Below, in pieces: positions 9,636 through 54,528 of a stretch of DNA of 64,000 bases (within the stretch, counting starts at the first letter, position 1; each line of letters starts with the position of its first letter). The position numbers and the translations under genes were made by a program. The stretch is from NCBI GenBank assembly GCA_002733415.1, contig NVVR01000002.1, positions 1 through 64,000 on the forward strand, written 5' to 3'. Under the pieces are notes generated by a model. That model ran no database searches and was not told the origin of the DNA. It saw only the letters and a program-made list of their open reading frames with translations. Source of the DNA: Kordia sp. (GTDB lineage: Bacteria; Bacteroidota; Bacteroidia; Flavobacteriales; Flavobacteriaceae).

Positions 9636-10661
9636 TCAGTCAGGCTCATTTGTGTTATAAAGCGCTAAAGCAGTTCGTAACTTATAGTTTACTCTTTTTT
9701 TCAAACGTTCTGGCTGAATCACTTTCATGCTTTCCCCAAACCCTAAAATCAGACGTTCCAATTCGTAATTAATTTTTACCTTGATGTTAATGTCAACACT
9801 TCCATTAAGATACTGATGTTCTATAGTTTGTGAGTGGTGTAAAGGTTTGGTAACAACATAAGGAGCATTACTTTTATCAATCCATATTTTAATATTGCAT
9901 GCACGTTCTCCTTGATTAACAGTTACTCCAATAGCATCTTTATAAAATGTATCAGGATCAAAACCTTGATCTAGATACGCTGTTTTTAAATCATAATCAA
10001 TACTGATAATTCTATCTAAAGCTAAATTAGAAACACCATTTGATCCAGCTCTTTTACCAACTAAGAACCAACGGTTGTTATATTCTTTTAAGATATACGG
10101 ATGAAATGTAATTTCAGAAGAATCTTTAGCTTTAAAAGATTTATAGGTTAATTTAATAACAACTTTTTTAAGAATGGCTTGGTATAACTCATCTAAGTAC
10201 TGTAGGCCTTTTAAATTGTCATTCTTATCTAAATGAATAATAGACTGATGGTCTTTTTGTGAAGAATAAACAGAATCTTCTAATCGTTGAAGTACACCGT
10301 CCATTTCTTTAAATAAGGAGAAGTCTTTAAATTGTCTCAATACCGCAATGGCTTCACTCATTACTTTTATATCATTATCAGTTACTGGAATATTCATAAT
10401 ACTATAGGCTGTATCAGTATAGCGATAATATTTTTTGTCGTACACTTCAATGGGTGCGTTATAGCCTAATTTGTCACTACGCATCAACTGTATGTCTAAT
10501 TGTACAGTACGCTTACTAACATTAATGTCTTTTCCTTCATATTCATAAAGGGCATCTGAACAGGCTTCAATTAAATCATTCAAAGTCCATTGCTTATAGT
10601 TGTTGCGTAAACAGTTATCAATGGTTTTGTATCGTATCAGAGCATTCTTATTAGCAGCCAT
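9636..10661 (-). CDS. WYL-domain transcriptional regulator (wHTH-WYL-WCX architecture)
   Basis: N-terminal HTH-like region. Classic WYL motif FHPYILKEYNNRWFLVG. C-terminal WCX-like segment PLHHSQ...LERLILGFGESMKVIQPERL. Confidence 0.75.
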   Translation of the reverse strand: MAANKNALIRYKTIDNCLRNNYKQWTLNDLIEACSDALYEYEGKDINVSKRTVQLDIQLMRSDKLGYNAPIEVYDKKYYRYTDTAYSIMNIPVTDNDIKVMSEAIAVLRQFKDFSLFKEMDGVLQRLEDSVYSSQKDHQSIIHLDKNDNLKGLQYLDELYQAILKKVVIKLTYKSFKAKDSSEITFHPYILKEYNNRWFLVGKRAGSNGVSNLALDRIISIDYDLKTAYLDQGFDPDTFYKDAIGVTVNQGERACNIKIWIDKSNAPYVVTKPLHHSQTIEHQYLNGSVDINIKVKINYELERLILGFGESMKVIQPERLKKRVNYKLRTALALYNTNEPD

Positions 10662-10662
10662 T

Positions 10663-11301
10663 TTATCGTTTATTAATTAGTTCTATTTCAGATTTTAAGT
10701 TAGTTCTTGCTATATCTTCATATTTGTTTTTAAAGATAGCTGTAGTAAAAATTGATTTTTTGTTAAGAAAATGTTCTAATACTTTTTTACGCCCTTTATA
10801 ATAAATGATATTTGGGACTGTTTTGTATTCAGTACGTATCTTTTTAGTGTAGTCAAGATATACTTCCCATGATTGGCCAAGTATTGCTAAATCAAAATCA
10901 ATTAAAAAAGAAGTGTCATTGGAATTTGATGTATGTGTTTTGGTAGCTAATATGTGTGCTGTAATGTTAGCCGTATTTACATTTTGTAATTTCAATTTAT
11001 TTAATACTTTAACTGCAAAATCAGCACTTTTTTCTTCATTATCTTTTTTCCAAACATTGTAGATAATGTCATGATAAAATATAGCTAAGATAAATTCTGT
11101 TAGGTCTTCAATTTCCGAACTGTACATGTCTAGGTAACTAAACAGTTCATTTAAATGCGTTAAATTATGATAGGCTCTAAACGATTCAGAGTAATGTTTG
11201 TGTAAGCCTTCCCATAATTCTTCAATAACAGTTTTGTCTGTTGTATACTTTAGGAACACTTTTTCAAAGCGATTTTTTAACTCCATTTGAATAAATTTCA
11301 T
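10663..11301 (-). CDS. HD-domain metal-dependent phosphohydrolase. It is in an operon with the WYL regulator.
   Basis: The H...HD motif (YHNLTHLNELF ... IFYHDIIY). Its stop is 1 nt from the WYL start. Confidence 0.6.
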   Translation of the reverse strand: MKFIQMELKNRFEKVFLKYTTDKTVIEELWEGLHKHYSESFRAYHNLTHLNELFSYLDMYSSEIEDLTEFILAIFYHDIIYNVWKKDNEEKSADFAVKVLNKLKLQNVNTANITAHILATKTHTSNSNDTSFLIDFDLAILGQSWEVYLDYTKKIRTEYKTVPNIIYYKGRKKVLEHFLNKKSIFTTAIFKNKYEDIARTNLKSEIELINKR

Positions 11302-11310
11302 TAAAAGTAA

Positions 11311-12774
<1,464 letters not shown>

Positions 12775-12783
12775 ATAAAGATA

Positions 12784-12806
12784 ACTACGCAAAATGACTG
12801 CGTAGG
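12784..12806. promoter_or_regulatory. Palindromic motif ACTACGCA-aaatgac-TGCGTAG, perfect copy, between the rtcB paralog and the NTase gene
   Basis: An 8-bp inverted repeat with a 7-nt spacer. It could be a DNA operator or an RNA stem-loop. Confidence 0.45.
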
Positions 12807-12843
12807 TTGTTTTCATCTTTGACAGGTAATTAAAAAAGAGAAA

Positions 12844-13590
12844 ATGAAAACAGCAATATTAAATAAGTTAGCAAGCATAGAAAAGAAGAAAAATATAGAG
12901 ATACTTTTTGCTTGTGAGTCAGGAAGCAGAGCATGGGGCTTTGCTTCCCCGGATTCAGATTATGATATCCGTTTTATATACAAACATAAAACTGAGTGGT
13001 ATTTGAATTTATGGGAGAAAAAAGATACTATAGAATTTATGACCGCTGAAGATTTGGATGGATCTGGTTGGGATTTACGAAAAGCAACACTCTTATTAGC
13101 AAAGTCTAATGCCTCATTATTGGGTTGGTTGTTTTCGCCAGTAATATATAGAGCTGATGAATCTTTTTTAAAAGAAATACAAACGCTAGCAAACGAAAAC
13201 TTTAATCCAGTAGCTGGTTTTTATCACTTTCATTCTATGAGCAAGAGTTTCTTAGATAAAGTAATTGAAGAGGAAGTGAGTTTAAAGAGTTTTTTTTATG
13301 CTTTAAGAACTACGTTATGTAGTAATTGGATATTGAAAAACGGAACTATTCCTCCAGTTGTATTTGCAGAGTTGCTAGTTTTAGTAGATGCAGATATAAA
13401 GGTAGCAATAGAAGAGCTAGTGGCAATAAAAGCAACTAAAAATGAAAGCTTTCAAGCCTTAAAAAACGATACTTTATTTAACTATTTGAAAGACATGATA
13501 ACAAAAAATAACTTGAATAGAAATTCAGTTTTATTAAATAAAGCTGATGGAGAATCGTTCAATGAATTCTTTTTAAAAACAGTAGTGTGA
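12844..13590 (+). CDS. Pol-beta-superfamily nucleotidyltransferase (RlaP-like candidate), copy 1
   Basis: NTase signature GSRAWGFASPDSDYDIRFIY (GS...D.D). It lies immediately downstream of the RtcB paralog. Confidence 0.6.
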   Translation: MKTAILNKLASIEKKKNIEILFACESGSRAWGFASPDSDYDIRFIYKHKTEWYLNLWEKKDTIEFMTAEDLDGSGWDLRKATLLLAKSNASLLGWLFSPVIYRADESFLKEIQTLANENFNPVAGFYHFHSMSKSFLDKVIEEEVSLKSFFYALRTTLCSNWILKNGTIPPVVFAELLVLVDADIKVAIEELVAIKATKNESFQALKNDTLFNYLKDMITKNNLNRNSVLLNKADGESFNEFFLKTVV

Positions 13591-14657
13591 TGACTATAGC
13601 AGAATTAAAGAAATCGGGAAGCATCATATTTGAATGTATAAGCGGTAGTCGAGCATACGGACTTGACACCGCTACATCCGATACGGATATACGAGGTGTC
13701 TTTATTGCACCAAAAGAGCAGTTTTACGGATTACATTATACCGATCAAGTAAATGATGAAACCAATGATGTTGTGTATTATGAGCTTAAAAAGTTTATAG
13801 GATTGTTATTAAAAAACAACCCAAACATCATGGAGTTATTAAACATGCCAGAGGAATGTATTTTATATAAACATCCTTTGTTTGATTTAATAAAAAAGGA
13901 ATTATTTTTATCAAAACTGTGTAGAAATACGTTTGCTAATTATGCTTTTACACAAATTAAAAAGGCAAGAGGATTGAATAAAAAAATAGTGAATCCTGTT
14001 GATCAGAAAAGAAAGTCTGTAGAAGATTTTTGTTATGTAAGAACAGGGAAACAATCAGTTTTGTTAAGGGGTTTTTTAAATATGAATCAATTAAAAAGTT
14101 CCGATTGTGGTTTGGCAAAAATTACTCATATGAAAGACTGTTATAACCTCTTTCACAATGTATACTTGGACTATAACGGAATAGCTAGAAATGACGCCAA
14201 CGAAGTTTGTTTGAGTTCTATTCCTAAGGAAGAAACTCCTATAGGGTTATTGTATTTTAATGTAGATGGATACTCATCATATTGCAAGAGATACAAAGAA
14301 TATTGGTCATGGGTAGCTAAACGAAATGAAGAACGGTATAAAAGTAATATTTCACATAGTAAAAATTACGATGCTAAAAACATGATGCATACTTTTCGGT
14401 TATTGCATATGGCAAGGGAAATTGGATTAAAAGGCGTCATAAATGTGAGGCGTTCTGATCGAGATTTTCTACTAGCAATAAAAAATGCTGAGTTTGAATA
14501 TGCTGAGTTGGTTGAAAAAGCAGAAGTATTACGACAAGATTTGGATAAAATTTATGAAAGTACAGATTTAATGGAGAAACCAGATGTAGCACTAGTGGAT
14601 AAGCTATTACTGAAATTAAGAGCTATCTATTATGAACAAAGAGTAGAGAAAGACTAA
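13587..14657 (+). CDS. Pol-beta-superfamily nucleotidyltransferase, copy 2 (paralog of the upstream gene)
   Basis: GSRAYGLDTATSDTDIRGVF. Its start overlaps the upstream stop by 4 nt, consistent with translational coupling. Confidence 0.6.
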   Translation: MMTIAELKKSGSIIFECISGSRAYGLDTATSDTDIRGVFIAPKEQFYGLHYTDQVNDETNDVVYYELKKFIGLLLKNNPNIMELLNMPEECILYKHPLFDLIKKELFLSKLCRNTFANYAFTQIKKARGLNKKIVNPVDQKRKSVEDFCYVRTGKQSVLLRGFLNMNQLKSSDCGLAKITHMKDCYNLFHNVYLDYNGIARNDANEVCLSSIPKEETPIGLLYFNVDGYSSYCKRYKEYWSWVAKRNEERYKSNISHSKNYDAKNMMHTFRLLHMAREIGLKGVINVRRSDRDFLLAIKNAEFEYAELVEKAEVLRQDLDKIYESTDLMEKPDVALVDKLLLKLRAIYYEQRVEKD

Positions 14658-14732
14658 TTAGTAATTCTAACGAGCCTTTTTTCTTACTTTTGAGAATAAA
14701 GTAAAAGCATATTTCAATAAACCAAATCTGAA

Positions 14733-15446
14733 ATGACAACGAGAAACAGAGGAAAAGAAGGAAGCGACGATAAGCTTTTTGGAACTTCAAAAATGCAACA
14801 ACTGATAAAGGAGGCGTTACAGGACATGTCCTATTTATTATCTAGAGATTATGCTGATAAATCAGCTGTACAATTGGTAGGGAATCGATATCGTTTAAAT
14901 GTGAGGCAACAAAAAGCGATACGGGGTATGAGTGCCTCAGTTACTCAAGTGGAACAAAGAAAATTAAGTGAGCTATCTGTTAACCAATTAGTAGGACGGG
15001 AAATAATGATTGATGGATTTAATCTATTAATAGTATTGGAAAGTGCATTGTCAGGAGCATATTTATTTAAAGGAATGGATAATTGCTACAGAGACCTTTC
15101 CGGAGTACATGGGAGTTATAAACGAGTACAACAAACAGAAAAGGCATTGTTGTTAATAGGTGATTTTTTAAAAGAGTGTGCGGTAGGAAAAGTTACTTGG
15201 GTGTTTGACAAACCGGTTTCCAACAGTGGTCGATTAAAAACGAGAGTCAGAGAATTAGCCGAAGCACATGGATTTAATTGGGAAGTGATATTAGATAATA
15301 ATCCTGATAAACTATTAGCGGAAAGTAACAAGATTGCAATTAGTTCCGATGCTTGGATATTAGATCGCGCTAAAAGGTGGTTCAACTTAGCAGGGGATTT
15401 AATTGAAAACAAAATAGAGATTACAACTATTATAGAGAGTTATTAA
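14733..15446 (+). CDS. Hypothetical protein, possibly an NYN/PIN-like nuclease fold
   Basis: An IMIDGFNLLIVLES segment resembles the N-terminal IDG.N catalytic motif of NYN domains. This is a weak assignment. Confidence 0.3.
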   Translation: MTTRNRGKEGSDDKLFGTSKMQQLIKEALQDMSYLLSRDYADKSAVQLVGNRYRLNVRQQKAIRGMSASVTQVEQRKLSELSVNQLVGREIMIDGFNLLIVLESALSGAYLFKGMDNCYRDLSGVHGSYKRVQQTEKALLLIGDFLKECAVGKVTWVFDKPVSNSGRLKTRVRELAEAHGFNWEVILDNNPDKLLAESNKIAISSDAWILDRAKRWFNLAGDLIENKIEITTIIESY

Positions 15447-15460
15447 TAACTTTCATGTCA

Positions 15461-15602
15461 AAGTAAGAAATAGAGAACGAAAAATCGGAATTGCGATGCA
15501 TAGCATCAGGCATGTAGATTCGAAAGTGATCGTTACGAAGTAATTTCCTATTCTTTGACTTGATTTTTTTGGTTCGTTTTTTTATCAAGAAAAAAATGAA
15601 CA
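15461..15602. repeat. Non-coding ~140-bp conserved block, copy A (homologous to 20570-20712)
   Basis: About 80% identity to copy B, including cttgatttttttggttcgtttttttatcaagaaaaaaatgaa. It starts 15 nt after the stop of the upstream gene. Confidence 0.6.
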
Positions 15603-15864
15603 GATAGTTCTTGAAAGACTTAATATGATGGTTTTAATAAAATTTATTAAATAAACTAACTTTCAAGTTTTATTTAGAAAAACAACAAATAAGCACTCGA
15701 ATTTGGTGAATAGGAACAATTTGCACCATATTTGTAGTAGAATTATTAACAAAAAATAAAACGAAAACCACCTATGACGATATTTTTAAACATAAAAAGG
15801 ACGCTGAAAAGCTATTTTGATTGTAAGAAATAGGTTAATTTTCGAAAAGATATCTCTTTAAAAA

Positions 15865-15895
15865 GCGTCCAAACTAAAATTTGGACGCTTTTTTT
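15865..15895 (+). terminator. Rho-independent terminator closing non-coding module A
   Basis: gcgtccaaactaaaatttggacgc followed by 7 T. The homologous hairpin is at 21094-21121. Confidence 0.6.
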
Positions 15896-16433
15896 ATGAC
15901 TTTTTTCGAACACTATTTTACTGTTATAAAATTGGAGCTTTAAATGCTAAATACAAGCACAACAATTGGTTGTGAATTTGTTTACTATCTGTAGGAATAC
16001 GGGCAGGGATTCTAGCACCTAAAAACAGCATAACTTACTGGTAACGAGAAATATAAAGGCAGATATTTTCTTGTGTAATCCAAAAAATGAATTGACCTTT
16101 GCATCGCAGTATTACCGAATAAAACGGAACAACTAGCAAAAACTAAATTATTAATCAAACCAATTAAATATTGGAATGACGTATAAATAATTTGAATTAT
16201 TTTTTTACTTAGATGAGGCATAAAATTTAAACATAGCCTCAGTTACGGTTATATTTTATAACAATATATAAGTGAAAAAGGAGCATATTATATATGACAT
16301 TTTAATTTTTAAATGGTTTATCAACACCGAAGTACTATGACTTTATTCAATAGCTACCAATACATTCCACAAGGCCTAGGTGCTTTGTTATGTATGCTTC
16401 GGGATTTCATTCGTAAATAATATTTCCATTATA

Positions 16434-16476
16434 TATGAAAAAAAGTCCGAAGCTATAACGTTTCGGACTTTTTTCA
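16434..16476. terminator. Bidirectional terminator-like hairpin about 120 bp upstream of rtcB
   Basis: An A-run, then agtccgaagctataacgtttcggact, then a T-run. Confidence 0.55.
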
Positions 16477-16598
16477 TTCTAGGTCTATCTTGAAGAATCT
16501 CCGAGACCAAATTTAAAAGTGATTTTATACAACCATGTTCCGTAATAGGAAGAACTATCAATGCATTAACATTTGATGGAAGGATCACTTATATCATA

Positions 16599-18008
16599 AT
16601 GTATAAGAAAAATATAATGGGAAAGAAATTAAGCGGAAGAGACTTAATCAAGTTAGGTTTTCCGCAAAACAATAGTATTAATGTGACTTTAGGTCAGATT
16701 AATAGATATCAGAAAAGAAAAAAGAAAGAACAAATATTACTCGAAGCTAAGCAAGTATTACTACATCCTGAAAATTATAAGGGAGATGGTGTTTGGGGAA
16801 AAATAGCAGAAAGTCTGCTAGATCCAGTACTAGTGACGAAGCAAGTGTTAAACTCAGTACGTGCACCATTTCAAATATTTGGAGAAAATGAAATTGATGA
16901 TAAAGCCAAGTATCAATTATTTGATGCTTTAAAATTACCAGTGGCAGTTGCAGGAGCCTTAATGCCAGATGCACATGCTGGATATGGTTTGCCAATAGGT
17001 GGAGTATTAGCAACAAAAAATGCTGTAATTCCTTATGGAGTAGGAGTAGATATTGGTTGCAGAATGAGTTTAAGTATTTATCCAATACCAACATCTTATT
17101 TAAAAGGAAAGCAGCATCAACTTGCAAATATTTTATCAGAACATACCAAATTTGGAATGTATGAAACACATAAGGTAAAACATGACCATGAAATTTTTGA
17201 GCGTGAGGAATTTAAAACTATTCCTTTAGTAAAGCGATTAAAAGACAAAGCGTACAAGCAATTAGGAACTTCAGGTGGTGGAAATCATTTTGTAGAGTTT
17301 GGAGTAGTAACTATTAAGGATGAAAAGAATGAATGGGACTTACCATTAGGCGATTATGTTGGCGTATTAAGCCATAGTGGTTCTAGAGGATTAGGAGCAA
17401 ATATTGCAAAACATTATACCTATTTAGCTACTAAACAATGTCCCTTACCCAAGCACGTACAGCAGTTGGCTTGGTTGGACTTGAACACACATGACGGGCA
17501 AGAATATTGGTTGGCAATGACATTAGCGGGTGATTATGCGAAGGCATGCCATGATAATATTCATAAACGCATAGGGAAATTGTTAGGAGCAAGACCTGTA
17601 GCTACAATCGAAAACCATCACAATTTTGCTTGGAAACAAGAGGTAAACGGTGAAGAATGTATTGTGCATAGAAAGGGAGCAACTCCTGCTGAAAAGGGTG
17701 AATTGGGAATTATTCCAGGTTCTATGACAGCACCAGGATTTATTGTTCGTGGTCTGGGGAATCAAGATAGTTTAGCATCTGCATCACATGGAGCAGGACG
17801 TCTTTTTTCTAGAAGAAAATGTAAAGAGAAATTCACTAAAAGTGAAATCAAAAAGCAATTGCAAGCAAACGATGTTACGCTTATAGGAGGTGGAGTAGAT
17901 GAAGCACCTATGGCTTATAAGGATATCGAGAAGGTAATGGCGAATCAAAAAGAATTGGTTGAGGTTATTGGAACATTTACACCGAAAATAGTACGAATGG
18001 ACAAATAA
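16599..18008 (+). CDS. rtcB: RtcB-family RNA ligase, release-factor-H-coupled type
   Basis: Canonical motifs PDAHAGYGLPIGGV, VDIGCRMSL, GGGNHFVEFG, HSGSRGLG, HHNFAW and SHGAGR. It lies immediately upstream of prfH. The true start is probably MGKKLSG at about 16617. Confidence 0.85.
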   Translation: MYKKNIMGKKLSGRDLIKLGFPQNNSINVTLGQINRYQKRKKKEQILLEAKQVLLHPENYKGDGVWGKIAESLLDPVLVTKQVLNSVRAPFQIFGENEIDDKAKYQLFDALKLPVAVAGALMPDAHAGYGLPIGGVLATKNAVIPYGVGVDIGCRMSLSIYPIPTSYLKGKQHQLANILSEHTKFGMYETHKVKHDHEIFEREEFKTIPLVKRLKDKAYKQLGTSGGGNHFVEFGVVTIKDEKNEWDLPLGDYVGVLSHSGSRGLGANIAKHYTYLATKQCPLPKHVQQLAWLDLNTHDGQEYWLAMTLAGDYAKACHDNIHKRIGKLLGARPVATIENHHNFAWKQEVNGEECIVHRKGATPAEKGELGIIPGSMTAPGFIVRGLGNQDSLASASHGAGRLFSRRKCKEKFTKSEIKKQLQANDVTLIGGGVDEAPMAYKDIEKVMANQKELVEVIGTFTPKIVRMDK

Positions 18009-18030
18009 AATCAACAGTAAGAAATAAAAA

Positions 18031-18723
18031 ATGGACAAAATAATTCAAATAACGGCAGCAAGAGGACCAGCAGAATGTTGTTGGGTAGTAGCTCAAGTAC
18101 TCAAGGTTTTTATAGCAGAAGTTAAGGCTAAAGGAATTGAGTATATAATTCTGCAACGAGAAAAAGGTATTGAAAACGGTACTGTACAATCAGTGAGTAT
18201 TCAGTTATCAGGAACCGATGTGAATAGTTTTTTAACTACCTGGACTGGAACAGTACAATGGGTTGGAACATCTGCATTTCGAAAATATCACAAACGTAAA
18301 AATTGGTTTATAGGGGTGTATGAATTGGAACAATTATCCCTTTCGGAATTAAATGAAAAGGATATTAGTTTTCAAACGATGCGAAGTACTGGTCCTGGTG
18401 GACAAAATGTAAACAAAGTGAATTCAGCAGTAAGGGCTATTCATACTCCAACTGGAGTACAAGTAGTAGCAATGGATAGCCGATCACAACATCAGAATAA
18501 AAAATTAGCAATAACACGTTTAAAGGAAAAGGTAATGGAAGCCAACAGACAACAACTTAAAACCATGGAATTGAACCTATGGAAAAATCATTTGAGTTTG
18601 GAGCGTGGGAATCCGATTAGAGTTTTTAATGGGACTGATTTTAAAAAGAAAAAAGTAATTGCTTCCTATAAAAATAATCGCAATCAGTTAAAAAACGACT
18701 TGCGAAAAGAACTAAAGAATTAA
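18031..18723 (+). CDS. prfH: Peptide chain release factor H (release-factor homolog with a GGQ motif)
   Basis: STGPGGQNVNKVNSAVR GGQ motif. A short RF-like protein of 230 aa, 22 nt downstream of rtcB. Confidence 0.8.
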   Translation: MDKIIQITAARGPAECCWVVAQVLKVFIAEVKAKGIEYIILQREKGIENGTVQSVSIQLSGTDVNSFLTTWTGTVQWVGTSAFRKYHKRKNWFIGVYELEQLSLSELNEKDISFQTMRSTGPGGQNVNKVNSAVRAIHTPTGVQVVAMDSRSQHQNKKLAITRLKEKVMEANRQQLKTMELNLWKNHLSLERGNPIRVFNGTDFKKKKVIASYKNNRNQLKNDLRKELKN

Positions 18724-18727
18724 GAAA

Positions 18728-19279
18728 ATGGGAAATTTAATAGATAAATATTTATTTCAAGCGTTGGATTCCTATCCATACGAATTGGAAACAACTGTAG
18801 AGTCATTAAACTATGCGCTTTCATACGATGCTAAAAATACAACAGCTTTGTGTTTAATGGGACGTCTTCATGCGGAAATACTAAGTGATTATGAAACAGC
18901 TAAGGATTATTTCCAACAAGCGTTAGCAGAAAATATACAGGCAGTAGAGGTGTACATACATTATGCTTCGGTATTACTATGTAATGAAGATTATAAAGAG
19001 GCTGAAAAATTACTGGATTATGCATTAACAATTAAAGGCTCAGATAAAGCTGTATTGTATGCCATGCAAGCAATTATGTACGAGCATTTAACAGCGTATA
19101 AAAAAGCATTAAAGTGTTTGAAAAAAGCTAAAGTGCATGCATATAACAATTGTTATACTGAAGGGATAAAAAGAGAAGAGACACGTATTAAAGACAAGAT
19201 GCCAAAGAAAAAAAAGGCCTCTAAGAAAAAATCAAAATCCTCATCTGATAAGAAAAAGAAGAAAAATAAAAAGAAGTAA
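18728..19279 (+). CDS. TPR-like helical protein with a lysine-rich C-terminal tail
   Basis: Helical repeats. The C-terminus is KKKKASKKKSKSSSDKKKKKNKKK. It starts 4 nt after the prfH stop. Confidence 0.45.
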   Translation: MGNLIDKYLFQALDSYPYELETTVESLNYALSYDAKNTTALCLMGRLHAEILSDYETAKDYFQQALAENIQAVEVYIHYASVLLCNEDYKEAEKLLDYALTIKGSDKAVLYAMQAIMYEHLTAYKKALKCLKKAKVHAYNNCYTEGIKREETRIKDKMPKKKKASKKKSKSSSDKKKKKNKKK

Positions 19280-19280
19280 A

Positions 19281-19826
19281 ATGGGAGCACCACATAATAA
19301 GAACAGATATGGTGAAGTGTGGCCTAAAGACAGAATAACTTATACCTTAAAGGAATTAATACTTTTAAAAGATTTAGTTGTTTTATCGGGTGGTTGGGCT
19401 TGGCATTTTCTATCGCCAAAAAATCATATTGAATATAAGCATGCACATGATCATAAGGATATGGATTTATTTATTCATCCTAAAAATGTAGCAGAGGTGA
19501 TGCATATTATTCAACAGAATGGTTTTAAAAAGGTATGGACACGTTATGATAGATTACCTAGTGAAGAGAATTTTAGGCGTTATGAAAAAACTGTAGAAAC
19601 GGAGACTGGCAAAGAAATTCGTATAACAATAGATTTTTTTGTTAGTGCCTCCATACCAGTTCAGAAAGCTAAAGGTTGGACTGTCGTAGCCCCATCTTTT
19701 TTATTAGGCTTGTATACTAACATTCATTCGAGTGATAAATGTTGGGCTGTACAGGCTGCATTTAAATTATTAATGAAAAATATCAACCCATTAGACAGGA
19801 ATGAATTAATTACTATTCCTGACTAA
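19281..19826 (+). CDS. Hypothetical protein, possibly a minimal nucleotidyltransferase fold
   Basis: LSGGWAWHF...HDHKDMDLFI resembles the G[GS]...D.D NTase motif. It starts 1 nt after the upstream stop. Confidence 0.3.
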   Translation: MGAPHNKNRYGEVWPKDRITYTLKELILLKDLVVLSGGWAWHFLSPKNHIEYKHAHDHKDMDLFIHPKNVAEVMHIIQQNGFKKVWTRYDRLPSEENFRRYEKTVETETGKEIRITIDFFVSASIPVQKAKGWTVVAPSFLLGLYTNIHSSDKCWAVQAAFKLLMKNINPLDRNELITIPD

Positions 19827-19849
19827 TGCAATGAAAAACACAAAACAAC

Positions 19850-20443
19850 ATGAAAACAACAGATAAAATTATAATAATAGACCTTGAGGCAACTTGCTGG
19901 AAAGGTCCTGTTCCGCAAGGACAAGTAAACGAAATAATAGAAATAGAAATTTGTGTTCTAGACACAAAAACGGGAATCATTTCAAAAAATGAAGGGATTT
20001 TAATAAAACCTGAGCGTTCAACAGTGAGCCCTTTTTGTACCGAGTTAACCACAATTACTCAAGAATTGTTAGATCAAGAAGGAATTTCTTTCGAGCAGGC
20101 TTGTAATGAGCTACGTATACAATACAATAGTTATCAATACACATGGGCAAGTTACGGTGCTTATGATTTAAACATGTTAAAGCAACAATGTAAATTCAGA
20201 GGATTGGATTATCCAATGGCTCAAAATCATATTAATGTAAAAACATTATTTACTAAAGTAAAAGGCTTGAAACGAAAAGTAGGAATGAAAGGTGCTTTAG
20301 AGATGTTAGAAATTCCATTAGAAGGCACGCATCATAGAGGAGTAGATGATGCTAATAACATAGCGAAAATTTTAGACTGGTGTTTAAATACATCAGCTAA
20401 AGCTGAAAGTTGTTGTTTAACTAAGGAAGTGCAATTTTCATAG
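19850..20443 (+). CDS. DEDDh-family 3'-5' exonuclease (ERI-1 / KapD-like)
   Basis: Exo motif I IIIIDLEATCW, motif II YGAYDLNML, motif III THHRGVDDANNIAKIL. Confidence 0.75.
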   Translation: MKTTDKIIIIDLEATCWKGPVPQGQVNEIIEIEICVLDTKTGIISKNEGILIKPERSTVSPFCTELTTITQELLDQEGISFEQACNELRIQYNSYQYTWASYGAYDLNMLKQQCKFRGLDYPMAQNHINVKTLFTKVKGLKRKVGMKGALEMLEIPLEGTHHRGVDDANNIAKILDWCLNTSAKAESCCLTKEVQFS

Positions 20444-20712: not shown

Positions 20713-21093
20713 CCCCCCCTTGATTTATAAACTATTTGTTAGATGTAAAAATAGGGATTGAAACTAATTTTATCAAAAGGTTACGACGCTATTGGTTTTT
20801 AGGGTAAAAGTAAATTACAGGTACTAATTCTCTGTGTTGTTAAAGGTATATGAACGCTATATTGTCTTATAAAGACTCTAAATAGTGCTCCATATTTGTA
20901 CTTTAGTATTAAATTATCCCATATTTGCAGTATATAAATGAATCAAAATAGAATACATATAGCACCTAAATCGCTGTTTAACCAGTGTGATTATCGTCAG
21001 GTAAGTGAATTACCTACACGAGAAGGGGCGTTTTGTGTCTATTGTTATAAGAATTGATAGTGTAAAAACTATAAAAACATATAAGAATTACAA

Positions 21094-21121
21094 GCGTCCA
21101 AGAAATTGGACGCTTTTTTTA
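21094..21121 (+). terminator. Rho-independent terminator closing non-coding module B
   Basis: gcgtccaagaaattggacgc followed by 8 T. Confidence 0.6.
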
Positions 21122-21550
21122 TGGATTTTTTTGAGTATGATTATAAAATAATAAAAGAAATAGAAAAGTAGTATTTGGACCCTAAGCAGAAGAGAGACAG
21201 TCAGTTGCATATTATCCAGTTATCGGTTGAAAAACGGACAGGAATCGCTATGTCTAAAAATAAGCGTAACTAATTGATTATCAGTAAATTAAATGTAATT
21301 TTTTCTTGTGAAATCTAAAAATAGGTTTCATCTTTGCACCGTAGTTAAGCAACAAATATGTTTATGTTTACTATCTATATAAAAAGACAAATTTTTAAAA
21401 ATATAAATATGATACGTTTTAATTCACATCCATTTTCAAGCCCCCTTTCGCAAAGCCGTCAGGATTATTGTCCGGAAGTAAATAGAAGCGTCTGTAGTAC
21501 TATACAACGAAGGAATATGTAGTTATATATATCTTCGTAAATTACTTAAA

Positions 21551-21574: not shown

Positions 21575-21771
21575 ATGCGCTGTAATCAGAGCTTTAAAAT
21601 GAAATAAAGTTAATGCAAAAATTGGAGAGTAGGCAAATGTTGGTTTGTTGCGCTCGTTTGCTAAACGAGTTTGTGTAATAGCAATGATTGGTTCAAATGC
21701 TTGCATTCACGAAAACCCAAAAAAAATAAAAATTGCTTGAGTAATTCCGTTGCTCTCCGCAAGAATAAATA

Positions 21772-21845
21772 AGACAAGGTGGCTGAAAGGTTAAGGCAAC
21801 GGTCTGCAAAACCGTTTTTTATGAGTTCGATTCTCATCCTTGTCT
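21772..21845 (+). tRNA. tRNA-Cys (anticodon GCA)
   Basis: Acceptor gacaagg/ccttgtc. Anticodon arm acggt-cTGCAaa-accgt. T-arm atgag-ttcgatt-ctcat. Folded by hand. Confidence 0.7.
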
Positions 21846-21904
21846 CAATGATTGAAGCAGTATCAAACTTGTTTGAAAACTGTGAAAATCCAATTTGTGA
21901 TTTG

Positions 21905-21941: not shown

Positions 21942-22025
21942 GGGAGTTCGCCAGAGTTGGAGAGCTGGGGCGGTCTGTAACACCGTTGTCGAAAGACTGA
22001 GTAGGTTCGATTCCTATAACTCCCA
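21942..22025 (+). tRNA. tRNA-Tyr (anticodon GTA), type II with a long variable arm
   Basis: Acceptor gggagtt/aactccc. Anticodon loop ctGTAac. Variable arm tgtcgaaagaca. T-arm tagg-ttcgatt-ccta. Confidence 0.7.
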
Positions 22026-22122
22026 CAATAAAATAAGGTTCTAGAAAGGGACCGTCAGGTTGAATATATATATAGTTACGGCTGACTATATGAATTTAGA
22101 GATGTATTTAACCTGACAAAAT

Positions 22123-22195
22123 AGTATCGTAGTTCAATGGCTAGAGCACCCGACTGTCTCTCGGGAAGCTGCGGGTTCGAATCCCGTCGGTACTG
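22123..22195 (+). tRNA. tRNA-Asp-like (anticodon GTC), with an atypical U at position 37
   Basis: Acceptor agtatcg/cggtact. D-arm gttc...gagc. Anticodon stem cccga/tcggg with loop ctGTCtc. T-arm gcggg-ttcgaat-cccgt. Confidence 0.55.
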
Positions 22196-22206
22196 CTAAC
22201 TAATTA

Positions 22207-22279
22207 CTGGGAAGATAACGATTGGCTGTTTACCCGCTTTGGATGCGGGAGGTTGCAGGTTCGAATCCTGCTTCTCAGA
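22207..22279 (+). tRNA. tRNA-Pro-like (anticodon TGG), with a non-canonical G8 and a weak D-stem
   Basis: Acceptor ctgggaa/ttctcag. Anticodon arm cccgc-ttTGGat-gcggg. T-arm gcagg-ttcgaat-cctgc. Confidence 0.5.
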
Positions 22280-22533
22280 CGATGTAACCAAAATCAAGCT
22301 TGCTTGAATTTTGGTTTGAGCTGAGACATCGCAGGATGACGTAGTCAATCCTGCTTCTCAGACGATGTGACCAAATCAAGTTATTTGAATTTGGTTTGAG
22401 CTGAGGCATTGCAGGATGACGTAGTCAATCCTGCTTCTCAGACGATGTAACCAAAATCAAGCAAGCTTGAACTTTGGTTTGAGCTGAGGCATTGCAGGAA
22501 AGACGAAGTCAGTCCTTCTTCTCAGACGAATAT
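22254..22533 (+). repeat. Tandem repeat of ~80-83 bp, about 3.3 units. Each unit is a tRNA-like minihelix (acceptor strands plus a T-stem with a 14-nt loop) followed by a perfect 13-bp hairpin.
   Basis: Units begin at about 22254, 22331, 22411 and 22494. Each contains gcagg-atgacgtagtcaat-cctgc-ttctcag-a followed by the hairpin aaccaaaatcaag...cttgaattttggtt and then ctgag(g/a)c. Confidence 0.7.
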
Positions 22534-22609
22534 GCAGGGATGGCGAAATGGTAAACGCACCTGATTTAGAATCAGGATTTTGAGAGTTCGAGTCTCTCTC
22601 TCTGTACCA
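22534..22609 (+). tRNA. Type-I (short variable loop) tRNA with anticodon TAG, identity uncertain. CCA is encoded.
   Basis: Acceptor gcaggga/tctctgt (two G-U pairs), U8, G18G19. Anticodon arm cctga-ttTAGaa-tcagg. 5-nt variable loop. T-arm gagag-ttcgagt-ctctc. Discriminator A, then CCA. Confidence 0.5.
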
Positions 22610-22688: not shown

Positions 22689-22759
22689 TGACTTGTGATG
22701 TAATGGTAGCATATAAGATTTTGATTCTTATTGTATAGGTTCAACTCCTGTCAGGTCAA
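22689..22759 (+). tRNA. tRNA-Gln (anticodon TTG)
   Basis: Acceptor tgacttg/caggtca. Anticodon arm taaga-ttTTGat-tctta. T-arm atagg-ttcaact-cctgt. Confidence 0.65.
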
Positions 22760-22766
22760 CTATTAA

Positions 22767-22907: not shown

Positions 22908-22980
22908 GGTGTTTTCAGCTTATTTGGTAAAGTGCTAGACTGTGAATCTAGAGAACAGGGTTCGAATCCCGAAAACACCC
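22908..22980 (+). tRNA. tRNA-His (anticodon GTG) with an encoded G-1
   Basis: Extra 5' G. Acceptor gtgtttt/aaaacac. Discriminator C. D-arm gctt-atttggta-aagt. Anticodon arm ctaga-ctGTGaa-tctag. The T-stem is imperfect. Confidence 0.6.
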
Positions 22981-23023: not shown

Positions 23024-23220
23024 GGTGGGAAGTTTGTAATGTAATTAAAAGCTAATAATAAGTTTAAAGGTTTTGTGTTCTTTTAAACGTTTAAATATCA
23101 AGCTAGTCTTGTTGGGTGTTTCTGTATAGCACTATTGTATAAAGTATTGCAATGATTTTGTATGATGACTTTATATTCAACTAGATTTGGAGGTTTTAGA
23201 TTGTTTACCAAAAAATAATC

Positions 23221-23258
23221 ACACACTGTGGTCATGGGTTCGAATCCCATCCTCATTA
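23221..23258 (+). other. tRNA 3'-half relic (T-arm atggg-ttcgaat-cccat plus acceptor 3' cctcatt-a)
   Basis: There is no matching 5' acceptor strand upstream. Confidence 0.45.
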
Positions 23259-23259
23259 A

Positions 23260-23316
23260 GTTGAGGTAGTTCAGTTTGGTTAGAACAACAGCGTAGATGT
23301 CGTCGGTTCGAATCCG
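23260..23316 (+). other. Chimeric tRNA relic: acceptor 5' plus D-arm (gttc-agtttggtta-gaac) joined to a T-arm (gtcgg-ttcgaat-ccgat), with no anticodon arm
   Basis: Only 12 nt separate the D-arm from the T-arm, and the acceptor strands do not pair. Confidence 0.4.
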
Positions 23317-23342
23317 ATCTTAAACTTTGGAGAAATCCATTG

Positions 23343-23729: not shown

Positions 23730-24830
23730 ATGAAACGAGTACGAATTAATGAGGGGAAAATTGGATTGGTTTTCAAAAACGGAAACTATTTAAAAGTAAT
23801 TACCGAAGGGGTATATTGGTTAGGAATTAATCAAAGAGTGCTAATGTACAATCAGGCAACTTCTTTTGCTACACCTATAGCCTTAGAACTTTTAGTAAGA
23901 GATGAAAAATTAACGGCACTTATTGATGTTGTTGAGGTAAAAGATAATGAATTAGTACTAGTGCATGAAAATGGAATTTTTAAAACAATCTTAAAATCTG
24001 GAAGATATACCTACTGGAAAGGTTTGATAAATAGAACCTATACTCGAGTAGATTTAAGTAAAATTTATATTACGGAACAAATTGAAAAATCATTGTTTAC
24101 AAAACCTGAAATGGTGCAGTACATCAGATTATTTGAAGTGGCTGCTTTTGAAAAAGCGGTATTGATTATTGATGATGTATACACAAAAACATTAGATGGA
24201 GGAACATATCGATTTTGGAAAAATGATACCACTATAAAAATTGCGAAAGTTGATTTACGTCAGTTGCAATTAGAAATTTCAGGCCAAGAGTTATTAACCA
24301 AGGACAAGGCTGCAATCCGAATTAACTTTTATACTCAGTATAAAGTTACTACTATTGAAAAAGCCTTGTTGGAAAACAAGGATTATGAAAAGCAATTGTA
24401 CGTTTTAATGCAATTGGCATTAAGAGCTTATGTTGGGACCTATACTTTAGATGAATTGTTAGAGCGTAAAGAAAATATTGCTGCTGCAGTGTTTGAAAAT
24501 GTGAAGAATGCTGTTTCAAAATTGGGTGTATCTGTTTTAAATTGCGGTATTAGAGATGTTATCTTAACGGGTGAAATGAAAGAAATCATGAATCAGGTAT
24601 TGGTAGCTCAAAAAAAAGCACAAGCAAATGTAATTACAAGGCGAGAGGAAACAGCTGCTACTAGAAGCTTATTGAATACTGCTAAGTTAATGGAAGAGAA
24701 TAGCATGCTATTTAAGTTGAAAGAAATGGAGTATGTGGAGAAAATTTCTGATAAAATTGGAGAGATTTCAGTTTCCGGAAATGGAGGTGTGATTAAACAA
24801 TTGAGGGATATTTTTTCCGTTAATAATTAA
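23730..24830 (+). CDS. SPFH / band-7 (slipin-like) domain protein
   Basis: The C-terminal half has an SPFH-like pattern (ILTGEMKEIMNQVLVAQKKAQANVITRREETAATRSLLNTAKLMEEN). Confidence 0.55.
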   Translation: MKRVRINEGKIGLVFKNGNYLKVITEGVYWLGINQRVLMYNQATSFATPIALELLVRDEKLTALIDVVEVKDNELVLVHENGIFKTILKSGRYTYWKGLINRTYTRVDLSKIYITEQIEKSLFTKPEMVQYIRLFEVAAFEKAVLIIDDVYTKTLDGGTYRFWKNDTTIKIAKVDLRQLQLEISGQELLTKDKAAIRINFYTQYKVTTIEKALLENKDYEKQLYVLMQLALRAYVGTYTLDELLERKENIAAAVFENVKNAVSKLGVSVLNCGIRDVILTGEMKEIMNQVLVAQKKAQANVITRREETAATRSLLNTAKLMEENSMLFKLKEMEYVEKISDKIGEISVSGNGGVIKQLRDIFSVNN

Positions 24831-54295: not shown

Positions 54296-54528
54296 GTGAT
54301 TGTTGAATGATGATTTTCGATTGTTGATTTTAGAAGTAAAAACCAAAATAAAACTGCATTAGGGATAGAAGCGACATCCTTTTTAAGCGTCCGTTCGAGT
54401 GAATTTATGAAGTGATAACGAATGAATTTGTACCGAGAACAGCTTAAAAAGATATAGCGGATAGCCCGACCAAAATTCGTGAAATTTTGGAAATGCACAA
54501 AAACAATAAATTTAAATAGAGTAGTAAT

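What the first reader, a model, noticed from the sequence alone, without database searches (positions are those of the whole stretch)
22534..22609. Unusual type-I tRNA with a TAG anticodon and an encoded CCA
By hand folding, this element has canonical features: U8, G18G19, U33, A37, a TΨC-like loop ttcgagt and discriminator A73. It has a 5-nt variable loop and the anticodon 5'-UAG-3'. That anticodon would read CUA (Leu), but bacterial tRNA-Leu is type II with a long variable arm. The anticodon loop can also close into a 7-bp stem with a TAG triloop. It may be a non-canonical decoder, a tRNA-like regulatory RNA, or a decoy substrate.
Basis: seen in the sequence. Interest (0 to 1): 0.55.

Follow-up and report, generated by a model that had tools for sequence, protein, structure and literature searches.

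The report
Short-armed leucine tRNA in array
This is a real leucine tRNA gene that has lost the long extra arm bacterial leucine tRNAs normally carry; it belongs to a little-noticed family that travels in phage and bacterial tRNA gene clusters, and here it sits inside an RNA-repair gene island.

Summary
Window 22534-22609 (+) is a 76-nt cloverleaf tRNA with anticodon UAG, a 5-nt variable loop, A73 and an encoded CCA. ARAGORN calls it tRNA-Leu(tag). Its Rfam tRNA score of 67.3 bits is the best in the window.

It is not an orphan oddity. Its D arm and core match those of class II tRNA-Leu, including E. coli leuW, and only the variable arm is missing. All E. coli-type leucine identity elements are present: A73, U8-A14, A15-U48, G18G19 and A20a.

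Short tRNA-Leu(UAG) homologues of 73-79 nt occur in 39 viral contigs and about 19 bacterial genomes, almost always inside tRNA arrays. There they fill the Leu-CUN slot. Across 29 distinct members, 98% of stem positions pair and 15 of 20 pairs show compensatory changes.

In the same arrays tRNA-Ser stays long and tRNA-Tyr nearly always does.

Type I tRNA-Leu is already documented in Streptomyces coelicolor, and phage copies are annotated as tRNA-Leu. This is therefore a new member of a known, under-appreciated kind.

The gene lies in an eroded seven-gene tRNA array within a conserved Flavobacteriaceae RtcB/RlaP/PrfH RNA-repair island.

The 7-bp stem with a triloop and the encoded CCA are not conserved in the family.

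The parts
22534..22609 (+). tRNA-Leu(UAG) gene, 76 nt including the encoded CCA. It has a class-II-type D arm (3-bp stem, A13.A22) but only a 5-nt variable loop.
   Evidence: ARAGORN; Rfam 67.3 bits; cloverleaf MFE; family covariation
22567..22569 (+). Anticodon 5'-UAG-3' in a 7-nt loop UUUAGAA (U33, A37). It reads CUA and CUG, and possibly all CUN codons.
22577..22581 (+). Variable loop AUUUU (5 nt), ending in U48, which can pair with A15. Class II relatives have 11-20 nt here.
22606..22609 (+). Discriminator A73 followed by the encoded CCA. The CCA is not conserved in orthologues.
21773..21846 (+). tRNA-Cys(GCA), first intact gene of the array.
21942..22026 (+). tRNA-Tyr(GUA), 85 nt. It keeps its long variable arm.
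22123..22196 (+). tRNA-Asp(GUC)
22209..22277 (+). Degenerate tRNA (32 bits). It lies where the Aquimarina array L032 has tRNA-Pro(UGG).
21617..21702 (+). Remnant of a tRNA-Ser(GCU) gene; only the 5' part matches.
   Evidence: blastn to the tRNA-Ser(GCU) genes of L032, L036 and L037
22612..22684 (+). tRNA-Arg(ACG), starting 2 nt after the Leu gene.
22689..22760 (+). tRNA-Gln(UUG)
22908..22980 (+). tRNA-His(GUG), last intact gene of the array.
16599..18008 (+). RtcB RNA ligase (context: RNA-repair island).
   Evidence: Pfam RtcB 281.9 bits
18031..18723 (+). Peptide chain release factor H (PrfH), partner of RtcB in ribosome rescue and repair (context).
   Evidence: TIGR03072 231.5 bits, cutoff 166.65
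11386..14657 (+). Second RtcB-like ligase plus two RlaP nucleotidyltransferase genes (context).
23730..24830 (+). Band_7/SPFH protein that follows the array in the Aquimarina locus L032 and both Winogradskyella loci L028 and L037 (context).

Best explanation
The element is a genuine elongator tRNA-Leu(UAG) gene of a short-variable-arm (type-I-like) tRNA-Leu lineage. This lineage circulates in phage tRNA clusters and in horizontally spread bacterial tRNA arrays.

It descends from ordinary class II tRNA-Leu by reduction of the variable arm to 5-7 nt. It keeps the class II D arm and the elements bacterial LeuRS reads: A73, U8-A14, A15-U48, the G18G19 placement, A20a and the D/T-loop elbow.

Inferred steps:
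- It is transcribed with its neighbours as a poly-tRNA precursor.
- It is cut out by RNase P and 3' nucleases.
- It is leucylated by the host LeuRS, which in bacteria reads neither the anticodon nor, in E. coli, the long arm.
- With U34 it decodes CUA/CUG and perhaps all four CUN codons.

The arm could be lost in Leu but not in Ser or Tyr because SerRS depends on the long arm whereas LeuRS need not.

In this genome the gene is one of seven intact tRNAs in an eroded array. The array is embedded in a conserved Flavobacteriaceae island encoding RtcB x2, RlaP x2, PrfH, a DEDD exonuclease, a Y-RNA-like element and a Band_7 protein.

Its most likely role is as a spare Leu-CUN tRNA that supplements or replaces the housekeeping pool when the translation apparatus is damaged. 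This role is inferred by analogy with the Anabaena trn operon.
For: Shown by tool results:
- ARAGORN calls tRNA-Leu(tag) and Rfam scores it 67.3 bits. The MFE fold is the cloverleaf.
- It aligns with E. coli leuW and phage T5 tRNA-Leu(UAG) everywhere except the variable arm.
- Among 1136 distinct tRNAs of all isotypes, 42 of the 45 nearest D regions are tRNA-Leu. The nearest is an 88-nt class II tRNA-Leu(UAG) with one mismatch.
- A D-arm motif search with no anticodon constraint returned seven viral hits. The four that are recognisable tRNAs are all tRNA-Leu, with anticodons UAA, CAA and AAG.
- In 29 distinct short Leu(UAG) genes, 98.1% of stem cells pair and 15 of 20 pairs have double changes. 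The covariation score is 0.761 against 0.219 for shuffles, reached by 0 of 500 shuffles.
- Invariant positions not forced by the search pattern are U8, A14, G18, G19, A21, U48, A58 and A73.
- A73 is present in 55 of 55 array Leu genes, and the other isotypes keep their canonical discriminators.
- In phage arrays with near-complete amino-acid sets, the short UAG tRNA is the only CUN decoder and sits next to tRNA-Leu(UAA).
- In the same arrays Ser is 84-94 nt (apart from one 74-nt tRNA called Ser(ACU)) and Tyr(GUA) is 83-90 nt (apart from one 72-nt gene), while Leu of every anticodon is mostly 80 nt or shorter.
- The gene is 91% identical to its syntenic Aquimarina orthologues, against about 72% for the flanking genes. 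Six of its seven differences from L036 lie in loops and the seventh turns G-C into G.U.
- CUA is the commonest CUN codon in the window's ORFs, at 10.7 per 1000.

From the literature:
- E. coli Leu identity depends on A73, A15-U48, G18G19 and A20a, and not on the arm or the anticodon (PMC9976931).
- A type I tRNA-Leu(CAA) is leucylated in Streptomyces coelicolor (PMC6614811).
- 23 of the 26 tRNAs of the Anabaena trn operon are aminoacylated in vivo, and the operon is induced together with rtcB (PMC8421152).
- That operon holds four tRNA-Leu genes, all 75-78 nt. At least one short tRNA-Leu must therefore be charged in vivo.
Against: - No expression or charging data exist for this gene or for this host.
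- E. coli LeuRS and S. purpurogeneiscleroticus LeuRS could not charge the Streptomyces type I tRNA-Leu(CAA), and in that system the number of variable-loop nucleotides mattered. Acceptance by the unknown Flavobacteriaceae LeuRS is therefore not guaranteed.
- Removing the arm lowered affinity for Aquifex LeuRS.
- The window's array is eroded. It has a Ser remnant and a degenerate Pro-like gene, and tRNA-Leu(UAA) has been lost relative to L028, L036 and L037. Some members may be decaying.
- A37 instead of the usual G37 (m1G37) is atypical for CUN-reading tRNA-Leu, although half of the family and phage T5 share it.
- The operator-like motif found before rtcB and rlaP is not found before the array, so co-regulation with the repair genes is not shown.
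- The anticodon was fixed by my collection patterns. Its conservation rests only on the blastn-found phage homologues and on array composition.
Confidence: 0.75

Rival explanations
1. The gene is a decaying or non-functional copy. It is a structurally intact remnant in an eroding array that is either not expressed or not accepted by the host LeuRS.
For: - The array contains a tRNA-Ser remnant (21617-21702), a 32-bit degenerate Pro-like tRNA and duplicated half-tRNA repeats. It lacks the tRNA-Leu(UAA) that follows Leu(UAG) in L028, L036 and L037.
- EcLeuRS and SpurLeuRS do not charge a type I tRNA-Leu.
- Three of the 26 Anabaena array tRNAs are pseudogenes.
Against: - It has the highest tRNA score in the window and all 20 stem pairs are intact.
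- It is the best conserved tRNA of the array, at 91% identity to orthologues, and its substitutions fall in loops or give G.U.
- The family as a whole shows compensatory evolution.
Confidence: 0.12
2. It is a tRNA-like RNA used outside translation. It would act as a decoy or sponge for tRNA-cleaving toxins, or as a substrate or sensor for the neighbouring RtcB/RlaP repair enzymes.
For: - It lies in an island with two RtcB genes, two RlaP genes, PrfH, a DEDD exonuclease and a Y-RNA-like element.
- The authors of the Anabaena study themselves raise a sponge role for array tRNAs.
- Minihelix-like repeats lie directly upstream.
Against: - The same family occurs in lytic-phage tRNA sets with no repair genes, where it completes the codon table.
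- Full retention of the aminoacylation identity elements and of A73 is what a translating tRNA needs. A pure decoy would not need them.
- A sponge role would be additional to decoding rather than an alternative to it.
Confidence: 0.08
3. It is a non-canonical decoder. A type I tRNA with anticodon UAG would be charged with an amino acid other than Leu, recoding CUN as happens with tRNA-Thr(UAG) in yeast mitochondria.
For: - The short variable loop is unlike standard bacterial tRNA-Leu.
- The precedent of CUN reassignment in yeast mitochondria (from my own knowledge).
Against: - The anticodon loop has 7 nt, not the enlarged 8-nt loop of the yeast case.
- The D arm and core are Leu-like.
- There is no G3.U70 (Ala), no G73 or long arm (Ser) and no G-1 (His).
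- All anticodon-reading synthetases would see a non-cognate UAG.
- CUN codons are used at ordinary Leu frequencies in the window.
Confidence: 0.03

Closest known systems
Type I tRNA-Leu(CAA) of Streptomyces coelicolor (Fan et al., NAR 2019, PMC6614811)
   Same: It is a bacterial tRNA-Leu with a 5-nt variable loop. It coexists with class II tRNA-Leu and one LeuRS, and it has been shown to be leucylated.
   Different: - The anticodon is CAA rather than UAG.
- It is a chromosomal housekeeping-type gene in an actinomycete, not an array or phage gene.
- In that system A73 is not an identity element and a specialised LeuRS LSD domain is required.
- Whether the two are related by descent was not tested.
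Short tRNA-Leu(UAG) genes annotated in phages: Cellulophaga phage phi4:1 (N354_gt005) and Vibrio phage vB_ValS_X1 / VspSw_1 (Demerecviridae)
   Same: - They have the same architecture: 75-77 nt, a variable loop of 5-6 nt, a Leu-type D arm, G1.U72 and A73.
- They are 80-84% identical to the window gene. The variable loop and T arm of the Vibrio phage copies are identical to those of the window gene.
- They lie in tRNA clusters next to tRNA-Leu(UAA).
   Different: - They are carried by lytic phage genomes rather than a bacterial chromosome.
- No RNA-repair genes were seen in the fetched flanks.
Long tRNA arrays (L-arrays / tRNA array units), e.g. the Anabaena PCC 7120 trn operon (PMC8421152) and arrays in Mycobacterium and Acidithiobacillus (PMC4758250, PMC5966550)
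   Same: - They are clustered, horizontally spread extra tRNA genes.
- The Anabaena operon is stress-induced together with rtcB, and its four tRNA-Leu genes are all 75-78 nt.
- tRNA-Leu(UAG) is over-represented in arrays.
   Different: - The window array has only 7 intact genes, below the threshold of 20 genes.
- It is partly eroded.
- Its regulation is unknown.
Canonical bacterial class II tRNA-Leu(UAG), e.g. E. coli leuW
   Same: It shares the anticodon, A73, the C2-G71 pair, a 3-bp D stem with a 13.22 mismatch, A14, A15, G18G19, A20a and U48. Identity is about 80% over positions 1-43.
   Different: leuW has a variable arm of about 13 nt, G37 and G1-C72. The window gene has a 5-nt loop, A37 and G1.U72.
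Animal mitochondrial tRNA-Leu
   Same: It is a type I tRNA-Leu recognised through A73 and A14 without a long arm.
   Different: It belongs to an organellar system with its own LeuRS and has a degenerate, floppy structure. The window tRNA has a fully canonical elbow.

Membership tests
tRNA (Rfam RF00005) | Cloverleaf matching the covariance model above the gathering score of 29 bits | tested here: met
   67.3 bits, full-length model match 1-71
Bacterial tRNA-Leu (identity set defined in E. coli) | Discriminator A73 | tested here: met
   A at 22606. A73 is present in 55 of 55 array Leu genes.
Bacterial tRNA-Leu (identity set defined in E. coli) | Core elements U8-A14, A15-U48, G18G19 placement and A20a; a 3-bp D stem; C2-G71 | tested here: met
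   Direct reading. U8, A14, G18, G19, U48 and A58 are invariant in 29 homologues. The feature list comes from PMC9976931.
Bacterial tRNA-Leu (identity set defined in E. coli) | Leucylation by LeuRS | not testable with these tools
   Support is indirect only: the Anabaena array tRNAs charged in vivo and the Streptomyces type I tRNA-Leu.
Class II (type II) tRNA | Long variable arm of more than 10 nt forming a stem-loop | tested here: not met
   The variable loop is AUUUU, 5 nt.
Type I tRNA-Leu (as in S. coelicolor and animal mitochondria) | Leu anticodon, A73 and a 4-5 nt variable loop | tested here: met
Short-arm tRNA-Leu(UAG) lineage of phage and bacterial tRNA arrays (defined here) | 73-79 nt, variable loop of 5-8 nt, Leu-type D arm, located inside a tRNA cluster | tested here: met
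   - 80-84% identity to phage copies and 83-91% to the syntenic Flavobacteriaceae copies.
- It aligns in register with 28 other members.
tRNA array unit sensu Tran et al. 2016 | At least 20 tRNA genes at 2 or more per kb | tested here: not met
   There are 7 intact tRNAs plus 2 weak ones in about 1.6 kb. The density criterion is met but the number is not. The definition is from PMC4758250.
Nonsense suppressor tRNA | Anticodon complementary to a stop codon (CUA, UUA or UCA) | tested here: not met
   The anticodon is 5'-UAG-3', which pairs with the sense codons CUA and CUG.
Yeast-mitochondrial-type tRNA-Thr(UAG) recoder | Enlarged 8-nt anticodon loop and a His-derived body (from my own knowledge) | tested here: not met
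   The loop has 7 nt and the body is Leu-like.

The most novel reading that the evidence does not exclude
The short-arm tRNA-Leu would not be a neutral relic. It would be a selected, damage-proof spare part, with loss of the class II arm letting it escape tRNases or other factors that recognise housekeeping tRNA-Leu.

In Flavobacteriaceae it would form part of a dedicated kit for rescuing the translation apparatus. The kit would comprise RtcB x2, RlaP x2, PrfH, an exonuclease, a Y-RNA-like RNA, minihelix repeats and spare tRNAs. It would be switched on when tRNAs and ribosomes are cleaved.
Probability: 0.15. Interest if true: 0.7.

Novelty: new member of a known kind. Interest (0 to 1): 0.4.

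Why it matters
[quoted passage not shown] The one documented bacterial exception, in Streptomyces, is described as rare.

This gene shows that a short-armed tRNA-Leu lineage is recurrent in phage tRNA clusters and in horizontally spread bacterial tRNA arrays across at least five phyla. In the same arrays tRNA-Ser keeps its long arm and tRNA-Tyr nearly always does. That pattern is a natural experiment on which synthetases truly need the arm.

The family also offers ready-made compact Leu tRNAs for engineering. In addition, it links spare-tRNA arrays physically to RtcB/PrfH/RlaP repair genes outside cyanobacteria.

For annotation, such genes should be called tRNA-Leu and not flagged as pseudogenes or odd decoders.

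Tried and rejected
- **Whole-window phage search.** Megablast of window 1-25000 against phages gave no match. Pfam shows T9SS proteins, PEPCK and RadA, so the window is a bacterial chromosome. It comes from JGI metagenome contig Ga0101728_106470.
- **Plasmid search.** blastn of the tRNA against plasmids gave only weak hits to unrelated Neisseria and Listeria records.
- **Triloop idea.** The MFE fold predicts the 7-bp stem with a triloop. I rejected it as a feature because position 32 is C in 19 of 29 homologues.
- **G1.U72 as a special mark.** I rejected this. It occurs in 28 of 55 array Leu genes but also in 13 of 17 array Glu genes, and E. coli tRNA-Leu(UAA) has it.
- **Encoded CCA as a family trait.** I rejected this because the syntenic orthologues lack it.
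- **Plastid-ycf2 Rfam hit on the minus strand.** It scores 35.7 bits against a gathering score of 65.7 and is a generic antisense-tRNA resemblance.
- **Bacteroidetes promoter motif TTTG-N17-23-TAnnTTTG.** It gave 5 matches against 6.6 expected, none before the array.
- **Operator-like motif.** The motif found before rtcB and rlaP was not found before the array or in other loci.
- **Literature searches.** Searches for a prior description of short-arm tRNA-Leu in phages or arrays found none. Only the Streptomyces paper turned up. The library is incomplete, so absence is not proof.
- **Anabaena paper.** Its supplements are not held, so I could not learn which three trn-operon tRNAs are pseudogenes. 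The first 50 kb of pCC7120delta holds no tRNA; the operon lies in the last 6 kb.

Full report
**1. The observation**

The sequence at window 22534-22609 (+) reads GCAGGGA-UG-GCG-AAAUGGUAAA-CGC-A-CCUGA-UUUAGAA-UCAGG-AUUUU-GAGAG-UUCGAGU-CUCUC-UCUCUGU-A-CCA. ARAGORN reports tRNA-Leu, anticodon tag, at exactly these coordinates.

Rfam's tRNA model scores it 67.3 bits against a gathering score of 29, E = 1.7e-12. This is the highest of the nine tRNA matches in the window, with a full-length alignment and no non-standard pair. The unconstrained MFE fold is the cloverleaf.

No ORF of 60 aa or more overlaps the gene.

**2. It is a tRNA-Leu body without the long arm**

When aligned with E. coli leuW (class II tRNA-Leu(UAG)) and phage T5 tRNA-Leu(UAG), the window gene matches throughout except in the variable region. 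In canonical numbering its D arm reads G10 C11 G12 / A13 A14 A15 U16 G18 G19 U20 A20a A21 A22 / C23 G24 C25. This is the class II Leu pattern: a 3-bp stem, an unpaired 13.22 position, and A14, A15, G18G19 and A20a. U48 closes the short loop and can pair with A15.

These are the elements the identity literature gives for E. coli LeuRS. That literature lists A73, A15-U48, G18G19, A20a and U8-A14, and states that neither the anticodon nor the long arm is required (PMC9976931; also PMC2377443).

Two independent tests support this reading:
- I compared the D region (positions 8-26) with 1136 distinct ARAGORN-called tRNAs of all isotypes from the fetched loci. Of the 45 nearest, 42 are tRNA-Leu, including class II genes with UAG, UAA and GAG anticodons. 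The nearest is an 88-nt class II tRNA-Leu(UAG) that differs at one base.
- I scanned viral contigs with the D-arm motif ATGGCGAAAN{1,3}GGYAAACGCNCNNGA, which places no constraint on the anticodon. It gave seven hits. The four that are recognisable tRNAs are all tRNA-Leu, with anticodons UAA, CAA, AAG and UAA.

**3. It belongs to a recurrent family**

- blastn of the array against phage genomes found 75-77-nt homologues in Vibrio T5-like phages (84% identity) and in Cellulophaga phages. Where annotated, they are called tRNA-Leu.
- Pattern scans found the short form in 39 IMG/VR contigs.
- A scan of representative bacterial genomes returned 26 loci. About 19 hold a 73-79-nt tRNA-Leu(UAG). Most of these sit in tRNA arrays of Mycobacterium, Planctomycetota, Spirosoma, Chitinophaga, Saprospiraceae, Spongiibacteraceae, Winogradskyella and Aquimarina, but several, such as the Myroides gene, are the only tRNA in their 8-kb locus.
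- In phage arrays that carry near-complete amino-acid sets, the short UAG tRNA is the only CUN reader and usually sits beside tRNA-Leu(UAA).

An alignment of 29 distinct members shows 98.1% of stem cells paired. Fifteen of 20 pairs have changes on both sides. The covariation score is 0.761 against 0.219 for shuffles, reached by 0 of 500 shuffles, and the score collapses when partners are slid.

Discriminator bases across the arrays follow the canonical identity rules: Leu A73 in 55 of 55, Ser G73 in 18 of 21, Asp G73 in 12 of 12, Cys U73 in 13 of 13, and His C73 in 7 of 8. These are tRNAs evolving under translational constraints.

**4. Why Leu and not Ser or Tyr**

In the same loci tRNA-Ser genes are 84-94 nt, apart from one 74-nt gene called Ser(ACU). 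tRNA-Tyr(GUA) genes are 83-90 nt, apart from one of 72 nt. By contrast, Leu genes of anticodons not selected by my pattern are mostly short: UAA 12 of 18, CAA 4 of 5 and GAG 4 of 4 are 80 nt or less. Variable-region lengths of 5, 6, 7, 8, 9, 11, 13 and 17-20 nt are all seen.

This fits synthetase requirements. [quoted passage not shown] This is an inference and not a demonstration.

**5. Features that are not special**

- The 7-bp anticodon stem with a UAG triloop needs U32. Position 32 is C in 19 of 29 members.
- G1.U72 is common in array Leu genes (28 of 55) but also in array Glu genes (13 of 17). E. coli tRNA-Leu(UAA) has it as well.
- The encoded CCA is absent from the four syntenic orthologues.
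- A37 replaces the usual G37 in the window clade, the Vibrio phages, phage T5 and the planctomycete arrays. The rest of the family has G37.

**6. Context**

The window is a low-GC Flavobacteriaceae-type chromosome fragment from a JGI metagenome contig. It contains T9SS domains, PEPCK, RadA and a Flavo-1 RNA.

The Leu gene is one of seven intact tRNAs (Cys, Tyr, Asp, Leu, Arg, Gln, His) between 21773 and 22980. The array also holds a tRNA-Ser remnant, a degenerate Pro-like gene and three half-tRNA repeats.

Upstream lie:
- a WYL regulator;
- an RtcB-like ligase;
- two RlaP nucleotidyltransferases;
- a DUF434/DUF5616 protein;
- a full RtcB;
- PrfH (TIGR03072, 231.5 bits against a cutoff of 166.65);
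- a TPR protein;
- an unknown protein;
- a DEDD exonuclease.

Downstream lie a Y-RNA-like element and a Band_7 protein.

The arrangement is partly syntenic in two Aquimarina and two Winogradskyella genomes. A TPR protein precedes the array and a Band_7 protein follows it in both Winogradskyella loci, the RtcB-like ligase was seen only in Aquimarina algicola (L032), and nothing comparable was identified beside the array in L036. The Leu gene is the best conserved tRNA there, at 91% identity to the Aquimarina copies against about 72% for the protein genes. Six of its seven differences from L036 lie in loops and the seventh turns G5-C68 into G.U.

RtcB-PrfH is an experimentally characterised module that repairs ribosomes cut by colicin E3 (PMC9304027, PMC9223846). 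RlaP restores damaged tRNA 3' ends (PMC12776372).

In Anabaena a long tRNA array is induced by translational stress together with rtcB, and 23 of its 26 tRNAs are aminoacylated in vivo (PMC8421152). I found that this operon contains four tRNA-Leu genes, all 75-78 nt, including a UAG gene with a 5-nt variable loop. Because only three tRNAs were undetected, at least one short-armed tRNA-Leu must be charged in vivo.

**7. Mechanism**

Shown: the gene is a structurally constrained, Leu-type tRNA gene that belongs to a horizontally spread family.

Inferred:
- it is transcribed with its neighbours;
- it is processed by RNase P and 3' nucleases, noting that the next tRNA starts 2 nt after the CCA;
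- it is leucylated by the host LeuRS through A73 and the D/T-loop core;
- it decodes CUA/CUG and possibly all CUN codons through U34. CUA is the commonest CUN codon in the window, at 10.7 per 1000;
- it serves as a back-up supply when the housekeeping pool is damaged.

Caveats:
- E. coli LeuRS and one Streptomyces LeuRS cannot charge the Streptomyces type I tRNA-Leu, and loop length mattered in that system.
- Deleting the arm lowered affinity for Aquifex LeuRS.
- The array here is eroded.
- The operator-like motif found before rtcB and rlaP is not found before the array.

**8. Comparison and novelty**

A type I bacterial tRNA-Leu is already documented biochemically in S. coelicolor (PMC6614811). 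Phage copies of this family are annotated as tRNA-Leu in GenBank.

I found no paper that describes the family, its spread in arrays and phages, or the contrast with Ser and Tyr. The searchable library is incomplete.

A 2023 review still states that tRNA-Leu has the long arm everywhere except animal mitochondria.

I rate the finding as a new member of a known kind, with moderate interest of 0.4. The recoding, suppressor and regulatory readings are unlikely.

Noticed in passing
window 22310-22530: Three tandem units of about 80 nt lie directly upstream of the Leu gene. Each resembles an acceptor-stem plus T-arm minihelix derived from the 3' half of the degenerate Pro-like tRNA at 22209-22277; they share the sequence CCTGCTTCTCAGACGATGT..ACCAAA. 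Two copies fold far better than shuffles (z = -3.7 and -4.0). No match was found in related loci.
   Followed up: partly
window 23090-23330: A conserved non-coding element follows the array. It gives a sub-threshold YrlA (Y RNA-like, RF02553) match at 23205-23312 (33.8 bits against a gathering score of 69). It also contains an anticodon-arm-less tRNA-like domain at 23260-23326 (37 bits). It is conserved in L028, L032 and L037. No Ro60/TROVE gene was seen among the window ORFs I scanned.
   Followed up: partly
window 20891-21346: A stretch of about 450 nt between the exonuclease gene and the array is conserved at 68-72% identity in L032, L036 and L037. It contains a 39-aa Cys-rich ORF starting at 20938, followed by a terminator-like hairpin at 21092-21115. 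Whether it is coding or an RNA was not resolved.
   Followed up: no
window 11321-11341 and 12782-12802: An operator-like motif TAACTACGCAAAAAGACTGCG (an inverted CGCA/TGCG repeat) occurs twice, before the RtcB-like gene and before rlaP; 0.01 matches are expected by chance. Similar sequence lies downstream of the arrays in L032 and L036. It may be the site of the divergent WYL regulator.
   Followed up: partly
window 9636-20443: The RNA-repair island reads as follows: WYL regulator (-), RtcB-like, RlaP, RlaP N-terminal-domain protein, DUF434/DUF5616, RtcB, PrfH, TPR, an unknown 181-aa protein with a faint nucleotidyltransferase hit, and a DEDD/KapD-like exonuclease.
   Followed up: partly
L028 6581-6652 (-), Winogradskyella sp. 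R77965: A tRNA-Gln homologue in the syntenic array has anticodon UUA, which is ochre-suppressor-like. It aligns with the window's tRNA-Gln(UUG).
   Followed up: partly
L028 6508-6579 (-) and L037 4297-4368 (+): 72-nt tRNAs with the unusual anticodon AUA, called Tyr by ARAGORN but lacking a long arm, lie in both Winogradskyella arrays.
   Followed up: no
L047 1054-1590 (-), Nostoc sp. PCC 7120 plasmid delta: All four tRNA-Leu genes of the experimentally studied trn operon (UAA, GAG, UAG, CAA) are 75-78 nt, so they are short-armed. The paper text I could read does not mention this.
   Followed up: partly
L198 455-562 (-), IMG/VR contig 3300003320_000143: A class-II-like tRNA-shaped sequence has the Leu D arm, a long variable region and an anticodon loop AAAUAAA. 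ARAGORN does not call it.
   Followed up: no
window 54354-54475: A Flavo-1 RNA (RF01705) scores 52.4 bits, above its gathering score. This is consistent with a Flavobacteriia origin for the window.
   Followed up: no
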